A DNA stretch of 64,000 nt from a virus. Shown here in pieces: positions 3,130 to 53,451 of this stretch; position 1 is the first letter of the stretch, and each line of letters begins with the position of its first letter. Made by a program: the position numbers and the translations under genes. The stretch spans positions 30,124 through 94,123 of IMG/VR virus record IMGVR_UViG_3300027706_000007; one strand, given 5' to 3'. Below the pieces are notes generated by a model, which was not told the DNA's origin, did not search any database, and saw nothing but the letters and a program-made list of their open reading frames with translations.

Positions 3130-3621
3130 TTGAGCGCGAGCGGAGAAGTTTCTTTATCAACGACAGCTTCAATAGGTGGTACCTATTATCTAAATACAGA
3201 AAGTTCCGTATCTTTAACCGCGTCAATTATAGGTCAAAATCCGCCCGGGCAAATTCAAATAAATAACATATCTTTTAACGTAAAATCATTTCAAATTTCT
3301 AAAGCCGCGAAATATAGAATTTATAGATTGCCTGCGTATGGGTATAGTACCCCATCCGGATTCACGTATGCAAAATCGTATTCAGATTCAATACTTATGC
3401 TCGGAGCATCCAATCGCGTATTTACTTTAACATTTGAAATTATTTCTTCCGCGCAATTAGAAAGTCTTCTTCAGCAATTTCAAGCTCCCAGTTTGCAGTT
3501 ATCAGAAGTGGACGGTACATTACATTTAGTCGCAGTTAAAGATATACAATCAATAACATTCACGGGTGGACTCGTGCAAATATACGAGGTTCAAGTCGAA
3601 TTTGTTGAATTAAACGCGTAG
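3130..3621 (+). CDS. Distal-tail/gpU-like tail protein
   Basis: TTG start. Pattern 'ILMLGASNRVFTLTF...LESL...IYEVQVEFVE' is typical of the Dit/gpU fold; adjacent to the fibre gene. Confidence 0.55.
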   Translation: MSASGEVSLSTTASIGGTYYLNTESSVSLTASIIGQNPPGQIQINNISFNVKSFQISKAAKYRIYRLPAYGYSTPSGFTYAKSYSDSILMLGASNRVFTLTFEIISSAQLESLLQQFQAPSLQLSEVDGTLHLVAVKDIQSITFTGGLVQIYEVQVEFVELNA

Positions 3622-13512: not shown

Positions 13513-13731
13513 TTATGTAGAATGTTTCTGTTGGTGTAGGATATCATCTAACGTGGGTTGATTGAAAACTCCATTAGTATATAGTTGGAGTAAGTATAAA
13601 TTGTTCGAGGTTTCGCGAGCCTCTGACGGAGTAATTTTTAAAGAATTTCTGTAGGAAGAAATTAACGCGAGTAGAGCAACTAAACTAAGGAAACCAAACA
13701 TTATCAACATATATTCTTCTATGAATCCCAT
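13513..13731 (-). CDS. Small protein with N-terminal transmembrane segment
   Basis: Hydrophobic stretch MLIMFGFLSLVALLALI; TATA box upstream. Confidence 0.55.
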   Translation of the reverse strand: MGFIEEYMLIMFGFLSLVALLALISSYRNSLKITPSEARETSNNLYLLQLYTNGVFNQPTLDDILHQQKHST

Positions 13732-13814
13732 GGTAATGAGAATGGACTCGCATGCTATATAAAGTTTTCTCGGAAATAGAAATATTTAAAAGGTCGGCGC
13801 GCTGAATTTTTTAT

Positions 13815-14525
13815 ATGAGAATTGTCGCGCTCGCGTGGAAAGATGATTCTTTTAAAGCGCAAAACTGGATTCCCCAATCTGGTACCAGCGCATCCACCAC
13901 AGGAGACGAGATTACGCTAAATGGAACCATTACGCGCACATTAACTGAATCCTTACTACCATACAGTTTTAATTTTATGTCTGTTCGCAGCTATTCCACG
14001 AGTAGCGCGAATATAACAATAAATCTTAATTATAATTCCACTACTGAAGCTTCTGTATCTTTTACCCCAGCAACAGTTTATTCGCGCCAAGGATTTCTCT
14101 TAACTCCCATTCCTTCAAACATAAACAGCATACAAATAATTAGTTCCGCATCTGCAACAGTTGATTATATAGCTTTAGCTGATTTGTCAGCTTTTCCTAA
14201 TGGCTATGCGTCCGAAATAGACTTCGGAGGTGATTTACTCACTATCAGCGCAAATTTCCGCACAACATCTCAATCAGTTCCAAACTCTACAGATGTTATC
14301 CAGCAACTCGGAATAGCTAGCAAAGAATATAAGTTACAGTTACCTAAAGTTCCGAAAGAAGTATATAATTGGCTTGAATATTTAGAACAAAATCATATTC
14401 CTGTTGAATTTGTTTCTAATAGTTTATCTGCTACCGGTTACCTAGTCAATGTTTCCGCACTAACTAATTGGGGCTGGGTCTCACAGCCCGTGGGTCAATA
14501 TATTTACGGGGAAGCACAAACGTGA
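13815..14525 (+). CDS. Dit-like tail protein, 5' part (jelly-roll-like N-terminus plus Dit core lacking its last strand)
   Basis: 'DVIQQLGIASKEYKL...WLEYLEQNHIPVEF...GYLVNVS' aligns by eye with ORF 3130-3621. Confidence 0.6.
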   Translation: MRIVALAWKDDSFKAQNWIPQSGTSASTTGDEITLNGTITRTLTESLLPYSFNFMSVRSYSTSSANITINLNYNSTTEASVSFTPATVYSRQGFLLTPIPSNINSIQIISSASATVDYIALADLSAFPNGYASEIDFGGDLLTISANFRTTSQSVPNSTDVIQQLGIASKEYKLQLPKVPKEVYNWLEYLEQNHIPVEFVSNSLSATGYLVNVSALTNWGWVSQPVGQYIYGEAQT

Positions 14526-14530
14526 TAAAG

Positions 14531-14701
14531 ATGGTTGAAAAATTTACGCAAATTGGAGGAAGCAACCTCGCATCTGGCTCAATGGGTCTAAGCTTATCTG
14601 TATACATTATAAGTCTACAGCCACCACTACCAGAACAACAACTCTATGATGTTACAGCGACTTTGATTAAAGCTGATGCAGATGTAGATGAATCATATTA
14701 A
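14531..14701 (+). CDS. Dit-like tail protein, 3' part (terminal strand LYDVTATLIKAD)
   Basis: Matches IYEVQVEFVEL of ORF 3130. In the -1 frame relative to the 5' part; ATG preceded by GTGA. Confidence 0.5.
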   Translation: MVEKFTQIGGSNLASGSMGLSLSVYIISLQPPLPEQQLYDVTATLIKADADVDESY

Positions 14702-15558
14702 GTGTGTACTGTCGCGTTTTCTCCCGCGAAACTCATATCGAACTTCACAATATCGCCGGGGCTGAATTTCATGTTGTTCGATGCAACATATTTGGTAACT
14801 GTACATTCGAGATAATAATTCGTACTACCGTTCGTTCCGATTAAGAGTTCTAAATCAAACGGAGACATATTCATCATCTGACCAAATTCTGATACATCTT
14901 GCAGCGTGAAAGTGATTGTACCTTCAATTGTCGCGTTGAGTGCGGGATTGGCTCGGATATATGGTTGGTCGAATTGATATACGCGCTGCAAATTGTTGCT
15001 AATTGTTACATCAAAACTTAAAGGACGCACAGAAACTACTCCACCCAATATTACTTCTTGTTCAACGAAATAGAAAGGAGTAACCCCGGGGTCAGTCGCA
15101 AACGTTACTCCAGTTGGCGCAGTATTTGTAACGTTTTGTCCCCAATATTGTACGTCAACATAAAAAGGCTGATTAGTGCGACCCTGCATCTGAACCCGAT
15201 TTGCGCGTGCACCATTCACGAGAAAGTATTGATTTATATCGGTATCATAAATTAAAACGCTATGAGAAGTGGTTGGTACATTGTTAATTTGGTCTGTTAA
15301 AAGAACAATATCCTGTGGATTATATCCCACTTCAAGATTGACTTCTCGCGGCCCCTGCAAAATGTTATTAGGATATCTTCCGGTTCCGTCAAGTGGCCAT
15401 GTGTAGAATTTTTTCTGGTCTACCGATAATGTAATTCCGCCCTGTGTTGGCTGAAAACTGCCGACCCAGTTATATGTAGTATTTGTTGGACTTACGCCAT
15501 ACGAACTCTCGGCCGCGAATCCTACTTGGGAACGCCAGCCGACCGCGATAAGAGACAT
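14698..15558 (-). CDS. Major tail tube protein
   Basis: N-terminal 'VGFAAESSYGV' and 'FDVTISNNLQ...IEGTITF' motifs of siphovirus-type tube proteins. Confidence 0.85.
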   Translation of the reverse strand: MSLIAVGWRSQVGFAAESSYGVSPTNTTYNWVGSFQPTQGGITLSVDQKKFYTWPLDGTGRYPNNILQGPREVNLEVGYNPQDIVLLTDQINNVPTTSHSVLIYDTDINQYFLVNGARANRVQMQGRTNQPFYVDVQYWGQNVTNTAPTGVTFATDPGVTPFYFVEQEVILGGVVSVRPLSFDVTISNNLQRVYQFDQPYIRANPALNATIEGTITFTLQDVSEFGQMMNMSPFDLELLIGTNGSTNYYLECTVTKYVASNNMKFSPGDIVKFDMSFAGENATVHT

Positions 15559-15645: not shown

Positions 15646-16356
15646 TTATGGAACATCAAATACATTTACAAGTTCATCATTATGCCATATTTCGACTTTC
15701 GGAAATGTGCCAGATGTATAAATCGCATAATGCTGTTCTTTTTGACTGCTATCTACACGAATCGATAACGTTCTGCCAAATCTCGCAATCGTGTATGGGC
15801 CGCTGATGTGGCCACTAAACGCGAGTTTTGGTTGCAATTTATTTAGCGCACTTTCCATAATCCGCAATCCTGTCATAGGCTCGTGAACAAAACTCAAATA
15901 TTCCTTAGTTAGCGGACTTTCGTGAGTACAAACAACATCAACGTTTGTTAATTTTTGCAGAAAAGATTCGTAAACCCATGGAAACTGACGCGGGGTTTGG
16001 TCTTTTATTAAACTTTTCTCGCTTACAATACCATTTACAAATCCCCACGTTAATCCCGCAATTTCCCGACGCTCTGCATCGTGACACCATATACTTGTGT
16101 TATCACGATTCCGTGCACGTGTGAGCGTAAATAGATTATCGTGGTTTCCATAAATAATATTTAGGCGCGCTAAAGTTGCTAAATCTTCCCATTCTTCAAC
16201 CGTCCATGCATGACCCAAATCCCCAACCGCGACAACTTCATTAATATTCTGTTTCTTGATAATTCCACGCAACCAATCTAATGCGTAACCCTGATATATT
16301 TTATGGTGTTCTCCATGCTCGTAATGTATGTCACTCACGATTAGTACTTTGGTCAT
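15646..16356 (-). CDS. Calcineurin-like metallophosphoesterase (probable start 16356)
   Basis: SDIH, GDLG, GNHD, THESP and SGHI motifs. Confidence 0.9.
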   Translation of the reverse strand: MTKVLIVSDIHYEHGEHHKIYQGYALDWLRGIIKKQNINEVVAVGDLGHAWTVEEWEDLATLARLNIIYGNHDNLFTLTRARNRDNTSIWCHDAERREIAGLTWGFVNGIVSEKSLIKDQTPRQFPWVYESFLQKLTNVDVVCTHESPLTKEYLSFVHEPMTGLRIMESALNKLQPKLAFSGHISGPYTIARFGRTLSIRVDSSQKEQHYAIYTSGTFPKVEIWHNDELVNVFDVP

Positions 16357-16450
16357 TCCGCGAAAATTTAAATATCTAACTATTAACGTTTTCGTATGTT
16401 TTAAAATATACCAGAAACTTTTATATAAAGACTCGCTATTACAGAAGGCC

Positions 16451-16681
16451 ATGGACACATGGCTCTCGAACTTTAAAAATTTCAAAAGACATGCATGGCT
16501 CGAAAACTCGCGCGTTTCTTGGTTTCTGGTACGCACTTATTCAGATTATAACTCATATGAACGAGAAAGCCGACAACTATTTGACGTTAATCTATATTAC
16601 GTGTCCAGAATAGAGAAAAAAATTGGCGGTCGTTTCGCGCGCATAAGACAAATTAACAAGAATAGTGTGCAACTTTACTGA
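16451..16681 (+). CDS. Hypothetical small protein
   Basis: ATG about 25 nt after TTTTATATA. Confidence 0.5.
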   Translation: MDTWLSNFKNFKRHAWLENSRVSWFLVRTYSDYNSYERESRQLFDVNLYYVSRIEKKIGGRFARIRQINKNSVQLY

Positions 16682-52473: not shown

Positions 52474-53451
52474 TTGTATGATTATATTAAAGTTCCACAT
52501 TTCGGTGAACCGCTGTCACGTGGAATAACGGACGGACACGTGTATGTAGAAGAAAAAGTAGATGGGTCGCAGTTTCGTGTTTACATTCCAAGCGAGAATA
52601 AACCCATACAATTCGGCTCTCATCATCAAAACATAACCACGACAGTCCCAAAGATGTTTGAAGTTGCGGTTGAGAGCGCGAAAAAGATATTTTCTCCTGA
52701 TAGATATCAGGGATACACTTTCTATTGCGAATTTTTATCGAGCAAAAAGCATAACACATTAGTCTACAATCGTGTTCCGGAAAACAATTTGATGCTGTTT
52801 GACGCATATGACGAACTTCATTCGCGGTGGGTTTTTCCATCCGAATTACCTACCCTCGCGCATGACTTGGGCATAGAAGCGGTTCCCATTTTAGGTGAAT
52901 ATGATAACATTTCTATGACCGAGTTAACTGAGAAACTTAACGAGTTCGCGAAAAATCGGGTATCAATTCTCGGCGGAGAGATAATTGAAGGGGTTGTCAT
53001 TAAAAATTATTCGAAACTTCACTCTCGTCACGATGAACACGGCCCCGAACCCGGACTTTGTCAGATAGTTTACTGGAATTCTACTAGTGTACCGCCTCAA
53101 ATCCCGTATATGGCAAAATATGTGCGTCCCGATTTTCGTGAGCGAAATAATTTAGAATGGAACCGCAAGCGCAATCCAGACCTCGATATTGCTCTTTCAT
53201 TGGCTACATCTTCACGCTTCACTAAAGTCATCAATCATGCGCGCGAACAGGGACTTCCACTTACGGATACTATGAAAGATGTGTCTATTCTACTTAAAGT
53301 ACTTGAAAAGGATTTCACTACCGAAGATAAACTTTACGTACAAGAAAAATTATGGGACGCATATAATGAAGATGTCTGGAGACAGCTAGTGAAACAATTC
53401 GTCACGTGGTATAAAGAAAAAACCTTCAAACAAAAACTTAATATGCAGTAA
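52474..53451 (+). CDS. ATP-dependent RNA ligase (Rnl2-like)
   Basis: EKVDGSQ (motif I), YCEF (III), LFDA (IIIa), EGVVIK (IV), AKYV (V); no OB domain. Confidence 0.85.
   Translation: MYDYIKVPHFGEPLSRGITDGHVYVEEKVDGSQFRVYIPSENKPIQFGSHHQNITTTVPKMFEVAVESAKKIFSPDRYQGYTFYCEFLSSKKHNTLVYNRVPENNLMLFDAYDELHSRWVFPSELPTLAHDLGIEAVPILGEYDNISMTELTEKLNEFAKNRVSILGGEIIEGVVIKNYSKLHSRHDEHGPEPGLCQIVYWNSTSVPPQIPYMAKYVRPDFRERNNLEWNRKRNPDLDIALSLATSSRFTKVINHAREQGLPLTDTMKDVSILLKVLEKDFTTEDKLYVQEKLWDAYNEDVWRQLVKQFVTWYKEKTFKQKLNMQ

What the first reader, a model, noticed from the sequence alone, without database searches (positions are those of the whole stretch)
14483..14622. Tail gene split by a 131/134-nt intervening sequence flanked by an ACAGCC direct repeat
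Seen: the Dit-like ORF reads ...WGWVSQP and stops 11 codons later, while its missing last strand (PLPEQQLYDVTATLIKAD, matching IYEVQVEFVEL of ORF 3130) lies in another frame. Removing 134 nt between the ACAGCC copies (14483-14488, 14617-14622), or 14490-14620 (GTGGGT...CTACAG), fuses the two in frame. Both junctions have a CAG codon, the first within a GGGCTG/CAGCCC hairpin. The insert carries TGATAA and a GTGA-spaced ATG. Inference, with options: non-canonical mRNA splicing (the virus encodes an RNA ligase), ribosomal bypassing between matched CAG codons, -1 frameshifting, strand complementation in trans by a 56-aa peptide, or a recent inactivating insertion.
Basis: partly seen in the sequence, partly recalled or inferred. 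Interest (0 to 1): 0.76.

Follow-up and report, generated by a model that had tools for sequence, protein, structure and literature searches.

The report
Tail protein gene split before last strand
A carbohydrate-binding tail protein gene of an uncultured archaeal tailed virus is cut in two just before its last beta-strand, and the strand is most likely supplied by a small, translationally coupled downstream gene rather than by RNA splicing or ribosome hopping.

Summary
ORF1 (13815-14525) stops 11 codons after WGWVSQP. The family's conserved last strand (QQLYDVTATLIKAD, 14636-14677) lies about 134 nt downstream in the -1 frame. Thirty remote homologues carry that strand in the same ORF, 1-25 residues after the GW motif.

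The intron and bypass readings are not supported:
- The ACAGCC repeat is at chance level; 31.5% of shuffles give such a repeat.
- I found no bulge-helix-bulge motif, no slippery heptamer, no Rfam match and no unusual RNA fold.
- The "insert" has gene-like codon usage in the downstream frame.

ORF2 starts at GTG 14522, which overlaps ORF1's TGA as GTGA, or at ATG 14531. A distant relative (L008) has the same break without any insert. Its ORF1 ends GWVGVFYS, an ATGA stop/start overlap follows, and an intact 422-aa ORF2 begins MSQKNQQLYD.

On a tree the split forms need three independent origins.

Best reading (about 0.57): a gene fission, with two coupled genes and the last strand donated in trans. 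The solved Tuc2009 BppU-BppA baseplate joint works this way. A decaying gene remains possible.

The scan has noted similar split-domain phage fibre genes on other DNA.

The parts
13785..13792 (+). TATA-like promoter element of ORF1 (ATATTTAA..., 30 nt upstream of the ATG)
   Evidence: A genome-derived weight matrix (consensus AAAcTTTAAATA, built from 37 of 73 ORF upstream regions) scores this site 9.0 at -30.
13815..14525 (+). ORF1, 236 aa: CBM-like jelly-roll domain plus a small alpha/beta domain that lacks its last strand. It ends with tandem stops TGA TAA (14523-14528).
   Evidence: family profile positions 9-244, 201.6 bits. AlphaFold2 model. Fold matches.
14469..14489 (+). WGWVSQP: the conserved GW motif that ends the penultimate strand. 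This is the last family-conserved segment of ORF1.
   Evidence: Alignments.
14471..14489 (+). 6-bp hairpin GGGCTG-N7-CAGCCC. It is present, but there is no sign that it is functional.
   Evidence: the region's fold z-score is -0.17.
14483..14488 (+). First ACAGCC copy of the direct repeat
   Evidence: the repeat is at chance level.
14490..14522 (+). Lineage-specific tail of ORF1 (VGQYIYGEAQT). It is not predicted to replace the missing strand.
   Evidence: residues 221-229 and 231-236 have pLDDT below 50, and residues 209-236 have no secondary structure.
14522..14701 (+). ORF2, 59 aa from GTG 14522 (overlapping ORF1's stop as GTGA) or 56 aa from ATG 14531. It carries the missing strand at its C-terminus.
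   Evidence: called as a gene on about 13 contigs from several sources. (profile positions 250-274, 22.5 bits).
14531..14620 (+). Its codon usage is gene-like in ORF2's frame.
   Evidence: log-likelihood ratio 5.85. Real genes give 7.2 +/- 3.6. The value lies in the top 3% of open shuffles and the top 8% of open wrong-frame windows.
14617..14622 (+). Second ACAGCC copy of the direct repeat
14636..14677 (+). QQLYDVTATLIKAD: the family's conserved last beta-strand, encoded in ORF2
   Evidence: In the model of the uninterrupted homologue P0008 this strand is residues 250-258, with pLDDT about 92.
14698..15558 (-). Tail tube gene, convergent with ORF2. The two stop codons overlap.
   Evidence: PF18906 Phage_tube_2, E 2.5e-18.

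Best explanation
This is a gene fission, not an interrupted gene that is mended at the RNA or ribosome level.

ORF1 and ORF2 are transcribed together from the ORF1 promoter. ORF2 is translated by termination-reinitiation at the GTGA stop/start overlap, or from the ATG 5 nt downstream. The C-terminal strand of the 56-59-aa ORF2 product (QQLYDVTATLIKAD) then pairs with the penultimate strand of ORF1's small C-terminal domain and completes its sheet in trans.

Shown:
- The two ORFs match adjacent parts of one family profile.
- The stop and start codons overlap.
- The same break recurs in other lineages.

Inferred:
- ORF2 is translated.
- The two products bind each other.
For: 1. Thirty remote homologues have the strand in cis, 1-25 residues after the GW motif.
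2. With a family profile built without the window's protein, ORF1 matches positions 9-244 and ORF2 matches positions 250-274 (E 2.4e-9).
3. ORF2's GTG overlaps ORF1's TGA, and an ATG follows 5 nt later. Start codons placed one base before the stop codon (-4 overlaps) occur at other gene pairs of this genome. Such overlaps give translational coupling in archaea and often join subunits of complexes (PMC6728339, PMC10666635).
4. There is no promoter-like site upstream of ORF2, whereas ORF1 has one.
5. The insert's codon usage in ORF2's frame is typical of this genome's genes.
6. Locus L008 is a relative whose family shares about 26-39% identity with ORF1. It shows the same break with no insert. 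Its ORF1 ends GWVGVFYS, an ATGA overlap follows, and an intact 422-aa ORF2 begins MSQKNQQLYD. Against an uninterrupted relative, the two ORFs align to residues 1-277 and 288-687.
7. P0018 is 82% identical to L008's ORF1 and ends at the same column. P0011/P0036, seen on 5 contigs, also end there.
8. On a tree the split forms need 3 independent changes.
9. In the AlphaFold2 model of ORF1 alone, the tail is disordered (pLDDT below 50) and the penultimate strand shrinks. In the uninterrupted homologue the last strand is confident.
10. ORF1 and ORF2 are found letter for letter in several assemblies (7 and about 13 contigs; NCBI, JGI, Logan, ENA).
Against: - There is no direct evidence that ORF2 is translated or binds ORF1.
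- This virus has no close relative (best 36% identity), so conservation of the split within its own lineage cannot be tested.
- The roughly 30-residue N-terminal part of ORF2 has no homologue and no assigned role.
- The Shine-Dalgarno-like GTGAT is weak, and such motifs are rare in this genome.
- For P0011 and P0018 only the protein ends were seen, not the DNA.
Confidence: 0.57

Rival explanations
1. The gene is damaged. A frameshifting insertion or loop rearrangement cut off the last strand. ORF2 is an untranslated relic, and ORF1 is either dead or works in a crippled form.
For: - The insert is unique in the genome.
- It has no homologue.
- No close relatives exist that could show the arrangement is maintained.
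- The ORF1 model lacks a structural strand.
Against: - The strand keeps every family-conserved residue (22.5 bits).
- The -1 frame is open for 78 codons, back into the overlap with ORF1.
- The insert has gene-like codon usage.
- A start codon sits exactly on the stop codon.
- The same break in L008 keeps an intact 422-aa downstream ORF, and it is shared by a protein 18% diverged from it.
- The break has three independent origins on the tree.
Confidence: 0.2
2. Recoding fuses the frames while the insert is translated. This would be -1 ribosomal frameshifting, or insertion of one base by transcript slippage, within the 55-nt overlap (for example at the GGGG run 14508-14511). The product would be about 295 aa with a long loop before the last strand.
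For: - The downstream frame is -1 relative to ORF1, and both frames are open across 14468-14522.
- The insert looks coding in that frame.
- L008 also has a GGGG run in its overlap.
- Another first-stage note proposes a -1 frameshift in this virus's tail chaperone (not tested here).
Against: - No X XXY YYZ heptamer lies in frame in the overlap, in either the window or L008 (read directly).
- There is no significant downstream structure.
- By general knowledge, GGGG is far shorter than known slippage tracts.
- The -1 frame relation is explained more simply by the NTGA stop/start overlap, which is present in both lineages.
Confidence: 0.1
3. The 131-143 nt are removed from the mRNA (an archaeal bulge-helix-bulge or other splicing event), or are skipped by the ribosome between matched codons (CAG 14484 to CAG 14618, or CAA 14496 to CAA 14639). 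Either way a fused protein with a short loop results.
For: - Frame-restoring joins give loops like those of homologues. SQPPLPEQQLYDV resembles the PLP...QQLYDV loops. VGQLYDV resembles P0012's QPVGQLYDV.
- Conceptual joins gain 25-29 bits against the family profile.
- Matched codons and a hairpin at the first CAG exist.
- The virus encodes an RNA ligase.
Against: - An exhaustive scan found no bulge-helix-bulge at any frame-restoring junction near the break.
- There is no Rfam family match, and the fold z-score is -0.17.
- The direct repeat is at chance level.
- No stop codon directly follows either candidate take-off codon.
- By general knowledge, the gap is 2.7 times longer than in T4 gene 60.
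- The gap has gene-like codon usage and a start codon.
- L008 shows the same split with nothing to remove.
- By general knowledge, the ligase is Rnl-type (PF09414), not RtcB.
Confidence: 0.05
4. The frameshift is an assembly or sequencing error, and the real gene is one continuous ORF.
For: The window comes from a metagenome-assembled record. A single added base in the overlap would fuse the frames.
Against: - The identical 236-aa ORF1 and the identical ORF2 occur on 7 and about 13 contigs from independent assemblers and sources. One of these is a strain variant with one amino-acid change in ORF2.
- Relatives show the same break.
Confidence: 0.03

Closest known systems
Lactococcus phage Tuc2009 baseplate joint BppU-BppA (crystal structure, PMC4742702)
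   Same: BppA has a CBM domain similar to PDB 1GUI, which is also among the matches of this family's N-terminal domain. BppA also has a small C-terminal beta domain, one sheet of which is completed in trans by a beta-hairpin from another baseplate protein.
   Different: - There is no sequence relationship.
- In Tuc2009 the donor is the C-terminal extension of BppU. Here the donor would be the product of the next gene: a 56-aa peptide in the window, or a 422-aa propeller-like protein in L008.
- Here both uninterrupted and split versions exist within one family.
- Binding has not been shown here.
Overlapping stop/start gene pairs coupled by termination-reinitiation in archaea and bacteria (PMC6728339, PMC10666635)
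   Same: An NTGA stop/start overlap (GTGA in the window, ATGA in L008) joins two co-directional ORFs that would form one complex.
   Different: Coupling was shown for haloarchaeal and E. coli gene pairs, not for this virus or its unknown host. The GTG start is inferred.
Donor-strand complementation in chaperone-usher pili, and split-domain phage fibre genes noted earlier by this scan (e1-6003675, e1-5634312)
   Same: A beta domain lacks its last strand, and the strand is supplied by another polypeptide encoded next door.
   Different: - The fold is different: an alpha/beta subdomain behind a CBM, not an Ig fold.
- No chaperone is involved.
- The scan notes are unchecked AI readings on other DNA.
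Translational bypassing in phage T4 gene 60
   Same: Matched codons lie on both sides of a gap, and a hairpin sits at the first one.
   Different: - No stop codon follows the take-off codon.
- The gap is 134-143 nt rather than 50 nt.
- The gap looks translated.
- A relative has the same split without any gap.
- The comparison with T4 rests on general knowledge.
Archaeal bulge-helix-bulge introns in protein-coding genes (cbf5 of Crenarchaeota)
   Same: The host domain and the size range fit, and removal would restore the frame.
   Different: No bulge-helix-bulge motif lies at any frame-restoring junction. The comparison rests on general knowledge of the motif.

Membership tests
Split gene (fission) with translationally coupled halves | The two ORFs match adjacent, non-overlapping parts of one family that is uninterrupted in most members. 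| tested here: met
   ORF1 matches profile positions 9-244 and ORF2 matches 250-274; the homologues are uninterrupted.
Split gene (fission) with translationally coupled halves | The start codon of the downstream half lies at or next to the stop codon of the upstream half, on one transcript. | tested here: met
   GTG 14522 overlaps TGA 14523-14525, and an ATG lies at 14531. No promoter-like site lies upstream of ORF2. L008 has an ATGA overlap.
Split gene (fission) with translationally coupled halves | The split state is maintained in evolution, with the downstream half intact. | tested here: met
   L008's ORF2 is intact over 422 aa and aligns end to end with an uninterrupted relative. P0018 is 82% identical to L008's ORF1 and ends at the same column. 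The tree needs three origins. This could not be tested within the window's own lineage.
Split gene (fission) with translationally coupled halves | The two products associate, with the strand donated in trans. | not testable with these tools
Only indirect evidence is available: ORF1 modelled alone lacks the strand, and its tail is disordered.
Archaeal bulge-helix-bulge intron | A 4-bp helix flanked by two 3-nt bulges brings the two splice sites together. | tested here: not met
   An exhaustive scan of junction pairs found no motif at the ACAGCC or CAA junctions. Elsewhere it found only weak chance-level candidates.
Archaeal bulge-helix-bulge intron | A spliced RNA exists. | not testable with these tools
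Translational bypassing (T4 gene 60 type) | Matched take-off and landing codons. | tested here: met
   CAG at 14484 and 14618; CAA at 14496 and 14639. Such matches are expected by chance.
Translational bypassing (T4 gene 60 type) | A stop codon directly after the take-off codon, and a short non-coding gap. | tested here: not met
   The first in-frame stop is 12 codons after the CAG and 8 codons after CAA 14496. The gap is 134-143 nt and has gene-like codon usage.
Programmed -1 ribosomal frameshift | A slippery heptamer X XXY YYZ in the zone where both frames are open. | tested here: not met
   I read all in-frame heptamers of 14468-14525 and of the L008 overlap. None fits.
Programmed -1 ribosomal frameshift | A stimulatory downstream RNA structure. 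| tested here: inconclusive
   The fold of 14450-14660 is no more stable than shuffles (z = -0.17). Pseudoknots were not modelled.
Distal tail protein (Dit) | Sequence or fold match to Dit families. | tested here: inconclusive
   There are no Pfam or PHROG hits. The N-terminal domain matches CBM folds (Z 9.3 to 7ay3, rmsd 2.3 over 116 residues). The C-terminal subdomain was barely tested by the fold searches.

The most novel reading that the evidence does not exclude
The 131-143 nt between the GW motif and the last strand are removed from the mRNA, or hopped over by the ribosome, in an archaeal virus, so that one fused tail protein is made. This would be the first spliced or bypassed structural gene of an archaeal virus.
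Probability: 0.05. Interest if true: 0.9.

Novelty: new variant of a known kind. Interest (0 to 1): 0.4.

Why it matters
If the two-gene reading is right, this uncharacterised family shows the same beta-sheet in two states. In most members the sheet is closed within one chain. In at least three lineages it would be closed between two chains.

In L008 the donated strand sits at the start of the large propeller-like, probably receptor-binding, protein. The strand would then act as a plug that docks an exchangeable receptor-binding module onto a CBM-bearing adaptor. That would be a simple route to host-range modularity in archaeal viruses, whose tail tips are poorly known.

It also gives annotators a practical warning. 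Truncated-looking tail genes followed by tiny ORFs may be functional pairs, not pseudogenes or recoding sites.

Tried and rejected
RNA-level signals
- Bulge-helix-bulge scan of all junction pairs in 14380-14700: nothing at frame-restoring junctions near the break.
- RNA fold of 14450-14660: not unusual.
- Rfam on 13700-14900: no match.
- tRNA scan of the window: none.

Origin of the insert
- Is it a decayed tandem duplicate of the strand region? Local alignments are no better than shuffles. One search was flawed by overlapping ranges.
- Is it a repeated or mobile element? There is no other copy in the 94-kb genome. Reading the sequence shows no terminal inverted repeats.

ORF2 signals and relatives
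- Internal promoter for ORF2: scores of -3.6 or lower, against a training minimum of 4.8.
- Shine-Dalgarno use in this genome: rare, so the GTGAT motif is weak evidence.
- Homologues of ORF2 as a small protein: none.

Searches for close relatives or for the DNA of P0011 and P0018
- Phage records.
- Viral contigs.
- Metagenome contigs with ORF1.
- Genome contigs.
- All gave nothing usable. L007 was a spurious match.
- A word-based homologue search with P0011 found only itself.

- The look-up of encoding contigs, the look-up of sequencing runs (so read laying was not used) and complex prediction.

Full report
SETTING

The window is bases 30124-94123 of a 94,123-base IMG/VR virus record. It encodes:
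- a tail tube protein (PF18906) directly downstream of the finding, on the opposite strand;
- a family B DNA polymerase, an HK97-type capsid protein, an RNA ligase (PF09414) and a metallophosphoesterase.

Other first-stage notes describe PriS, PriX and MCM, which fits an archaeal tailed virus. Genes mostly lack Shine-Dalgarno motifs. About 30-34 nt upstream of the ATG they carry an AAAcTTTAAATA-type element.

THE OBSERVATION

ORF1 (13815-14525, + strand, 236 aa) reads ...TNWGWVSQP, then VGQYIYGEAQT, then TGA TAA. The -1 frame is open from 14468 to 14701 and ends ...SLQPPLPEQQLYDVTATLIKADADVDESY. ACAGCC stands at 14483-14488 and at 14617-14622. Removing 134 nt, or 131, 137 or 143 nt, joins the frames.

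IS THE DOWNSTREAM PIECE REALLY PART OF THE PROTEIN? YES.

Word-based searches found only the protein itself. An exhaustive phmmer search of 1.84 billion representatives found 30 relatives at 26-45% identity over the matched stretches.
- The short relatives (213-298 aa) end ...GW(V/I), then a loop of 1-25 residues, then LYD(V/I)..T(L/F)IK(A/G)D and a few more residues.
- The long relatives (380-790 aa) continue after that strand into a domain with Asp-box-like SxDGxTW motifs.
- A profile built from these relatives without the window's protein matches ORF1 at positions 9-244 (201.6 bits). It matches the C-terminus of ORF2 at positions 250-274 (22.5 bits, E 2.4e-9 for one sequence).

An AlphaFold2 model of the uninterrupted relative P0008 (31-sequence alignment, mean pLDDT 81) shows:
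- a beta-sandwich at residues 1-130;
- a beta-alpha-beta-beta-beta subdomain at residues 179-258;
- a last strand (250-258, LYDVTLTVI) that is confident, with pLDDT about 92.

The model of ORF1 alone was built with an alignment that, if anything, favours placing its tail as that strand. Even so, residues 221-229 and 231-236 have pLDDT below 50, and residues 209-236 have no secondary structure. The penultimate strand also shrinks from 13 to 4 residues. ORF1 therefore lacks a structural element, and ORF2 carries it.

WHAT THE PROTEIN IS

The N-terminal domain is a CBM-like jelly roll:
- VIA-align Z 9.3, rmsd 2.3 over 116 residues, to CBM36 (7ay3).
- CBM6, CBM4 (including 1GUI) and the turret protein of Haloferax tailed virus 1 (Z 8.2) are also listed.
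- Viral predicted structures that match are minor tail and fibre proteins, at low TM-scores.

I found no support for the label 'Dit-like'. The resemblance to ORF 3130 is weak.

TESTS OF THE INTERVENING-SEQUENCE READINGS

- A frame-restoring 6-mer direct repeat between the two regions arises in 31.5% of shuffles.
- An exhaustive scan for the archaeal splicing motif found none at the ACAGCC or CAA junctions, and only chance-level candidates elsewhere. The motif is a 4-bp helix between two 3-nt bulges with flanking helices.
- The local RNA fold is no more stable than shuffles (z = -0.17).
- Rfam gives nothing.
- The insert has no other copy in the genome, is not a decayed duplicate of the strand region, and has no homologue as a small protein.
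- No in-frame X XXY YYZ heptamer lies in the 55-nt zone where both frames are open (read).
- For a gene-60-type hop, matched codons exist (CAG/CAG, CAA/CAA). However, no stop codon follows the take-off codon, and the gap is 134-143 nt.
- The RNA ligase is PF09414. By general knowledge this is an ATP-dependent 3'-OH/5'-phosphate ligase, of the kind phages use for RNA repair. It is not RtcB, which seals archaeal splicing products.

POSITIVE EVIDENCE FOR TWO GENES

1. ORF2 has a GTG at 14522 that overlaps ORF1's TGA (GTGA), and an ATG at 14531. Gene callers in several collections call it as a 56- or 59-aa protein.
2. ORF2 has no promoter-like site of its own, while ORF1 does. ORF2 would therefore be translated from the ORF1 transcript. 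Stop/start overlaps of this kind couple translation by termination-reinitiation in archaea and often join subunits of complexes (PMC6728339, PMC10666635). The same overlap type occurs at other gene pairs of this genome.
3. The 30 codons of the insert that belong to ORF2 (14531-14620) have a codon-usage score of 5.85. Real genes of this genome give 7.2 +/- 3.6. The score lies in the top 3% of stop-free shuffles and the top 8% of stop-free wrong-frame windows. An intron or a bypassed gap has no need of this.
4. The decisive comparison is locus L008 (a JGI metagenome contig), found with the truncated-looking relative P0018:
   - Its ORF1 ends ...HSEAGWVGVFYS.
   - Its stop overlaps an ATG (TCATGAGCC).
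   - The next ORF begins MSQKNQQLYDTSFNLMKSD... and runs intact for 422 aa.
   - Against the uninterrupted 687-aa protein of L012, ORF1 aligns to residues 1-277 (61.5% identity). ORF2 aligns to residues 288-687 (53.5% identity), end to end.
   - Against the family profile the two ORFs cover positions 1-242 and 254-547.
   - Nothing here could be spliced out. The gene is simply cut in the loop before the last strand, and the strand heads the second protein.
5. P0018 is 82% identical to L008's ORF1 and stops at the same column. P0011/P0036 (two alleles on five contigs up to 77.7 kb) also stop there.
6. On a maximum-likelihood tree of the N-terminal domains, the split forms (window; P0011/P0036; P0018/L008) need three changes, and well-supported branches force that number. 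Caveat: the window's branch is long. For P0011 and P0018 I saw only the protein ends, not the DNA.
7. The other ten distinct loci I fetched are uninterrupted at this point.

IS IT AN ERROR?

The identical ORF1 occurs on 7 contigs and ORF2 on about 13 contigs, from NCBI, JGI/IMG, Logan and ENA assemblies. One of these is a strain variant with one amino-acid change in ORF2. I could not look at reads or at those contigs.

MECHANISM PROPOSED

ORF1 and ORF2 are co-transcribed. Ribosomes that terminate at TGA 14523-14525 reinitiate at the overlapping GTG or at the nearby ATG. The C-terminal strand of ORF2 pairs with ORF1's penultimate strand (TGYLVNVSALTNWGW) and completes the small C-terminal domain.

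The steps from translation of ORF2 onwards are inferred.

A solved analogue exists in the Tuc2009 baseplate. BppA has a CBM domain similar to 1GUI plus a small C-terminal beta domain, and one sheet of that domain is completed by a beta-hairpin from BppU (PMC4742702). In L008 the donor would be the large, probably receptor-binding protein, so the strand would act as a docking plug. In the window the donor is a stand-alone 56-aa peptide whose first 30 residues have no assigned role.

WHAT REMAINS OPEN

- Whether the window's split is functional or a decaying gene (I put decay at about 0.2).
- Whether some recoding fuses the frames (about 0.1).
- How the extra 130-odd bases arose. The ORF1 tail begins SQPVGQ, like the NQPVGQ-LYDV loop of P0012. 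ORF2 has PLPEQQ-LYDV, like the PLP...QQLYDV loops of the long forms. This hints at recombination between two alleles or cassettes, but I could not test it.

The scan has earlier noted split-domain fibre genes in phages on other DNA. Those notes are unchecked and count only as leads.

VERDICT

The intron and bypass interpretation is not supported. The trans-complementation option is favoured. The finding is a moderately interesting, untested case of gene fission at a strand boundary in an uncharacterised tail-protein family of archaeal viruses.

Noticed in passing
window 52474-53451 (+) and 15646-16536 (-): An RNA ligase (PF09414, E 8e-17) and a calcineurin-like metallophosphoesterase (PF00149) are encoded in the same virus. 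They might form an RNA end-healing and sealing (repair) pair. Neither is an RtcB-type splicing ligase.
   Followed up: partly
whole genome; example window 13785-13792: About half of the long ORFs (37 of 73) carry an AAAcTTTAAATA / TTTATATA element that starts 30-34 nt upstream of the ATG. Shine-Dalgarno motifs are rare. This suggests short-leader or leaderless transcripts.
   Followed up: partly
L002, L006, L009 (IMG/VR and JGI contigs), gene end about 970 nt after the gene start: In these relatives the gene stops right after ...NIDLTCPVIP. In the long forms this is the linker that leads into the propeller-like domain. It may be a second modular boundary of the family.
   Followed up: no
P0026 (465 aa) and P0030 (452 aa): These family members begin in the middle of the N-terminal module (at ...KKTVSQTIPN.. 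/ MQAIPNASDVIQQ) and then continue through the strand into the long C-terminal domain. They may be truncated gene calls, or a further split point between the CBM and the alpha/beta subdomain.
   Followed up: no
window 3130-3621 (+): This 163-aa ORF lies upstream of the 2128-aa adhesin gene. It ends ...QIYEVQVEFVELNA and aligns weakly (hhalign probability 3%, E 0.013) to the C-terminal alpha/beta module of the family. It is possibly a distant paralogue with the strand in cis.
   Followed up: partly
window 13815-14189 (N-terminal domain of ORF1): The CBM-like domain also resembles a chain of the turret of Haloferax tailed virus 1 (8qpg_TC, Z 8.2, rmsd 2.8 over 118 residues). CBM-type decoration may therefore be shared among archaeal tailed viruses.
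   Followed up: no
window 14698-14701: ORF2 and the convergent tail tube gene overlap by their stop codons (4 nt), so the + strand gene pair is packed tightly between minus-strand tail genes.
   Followed up: no
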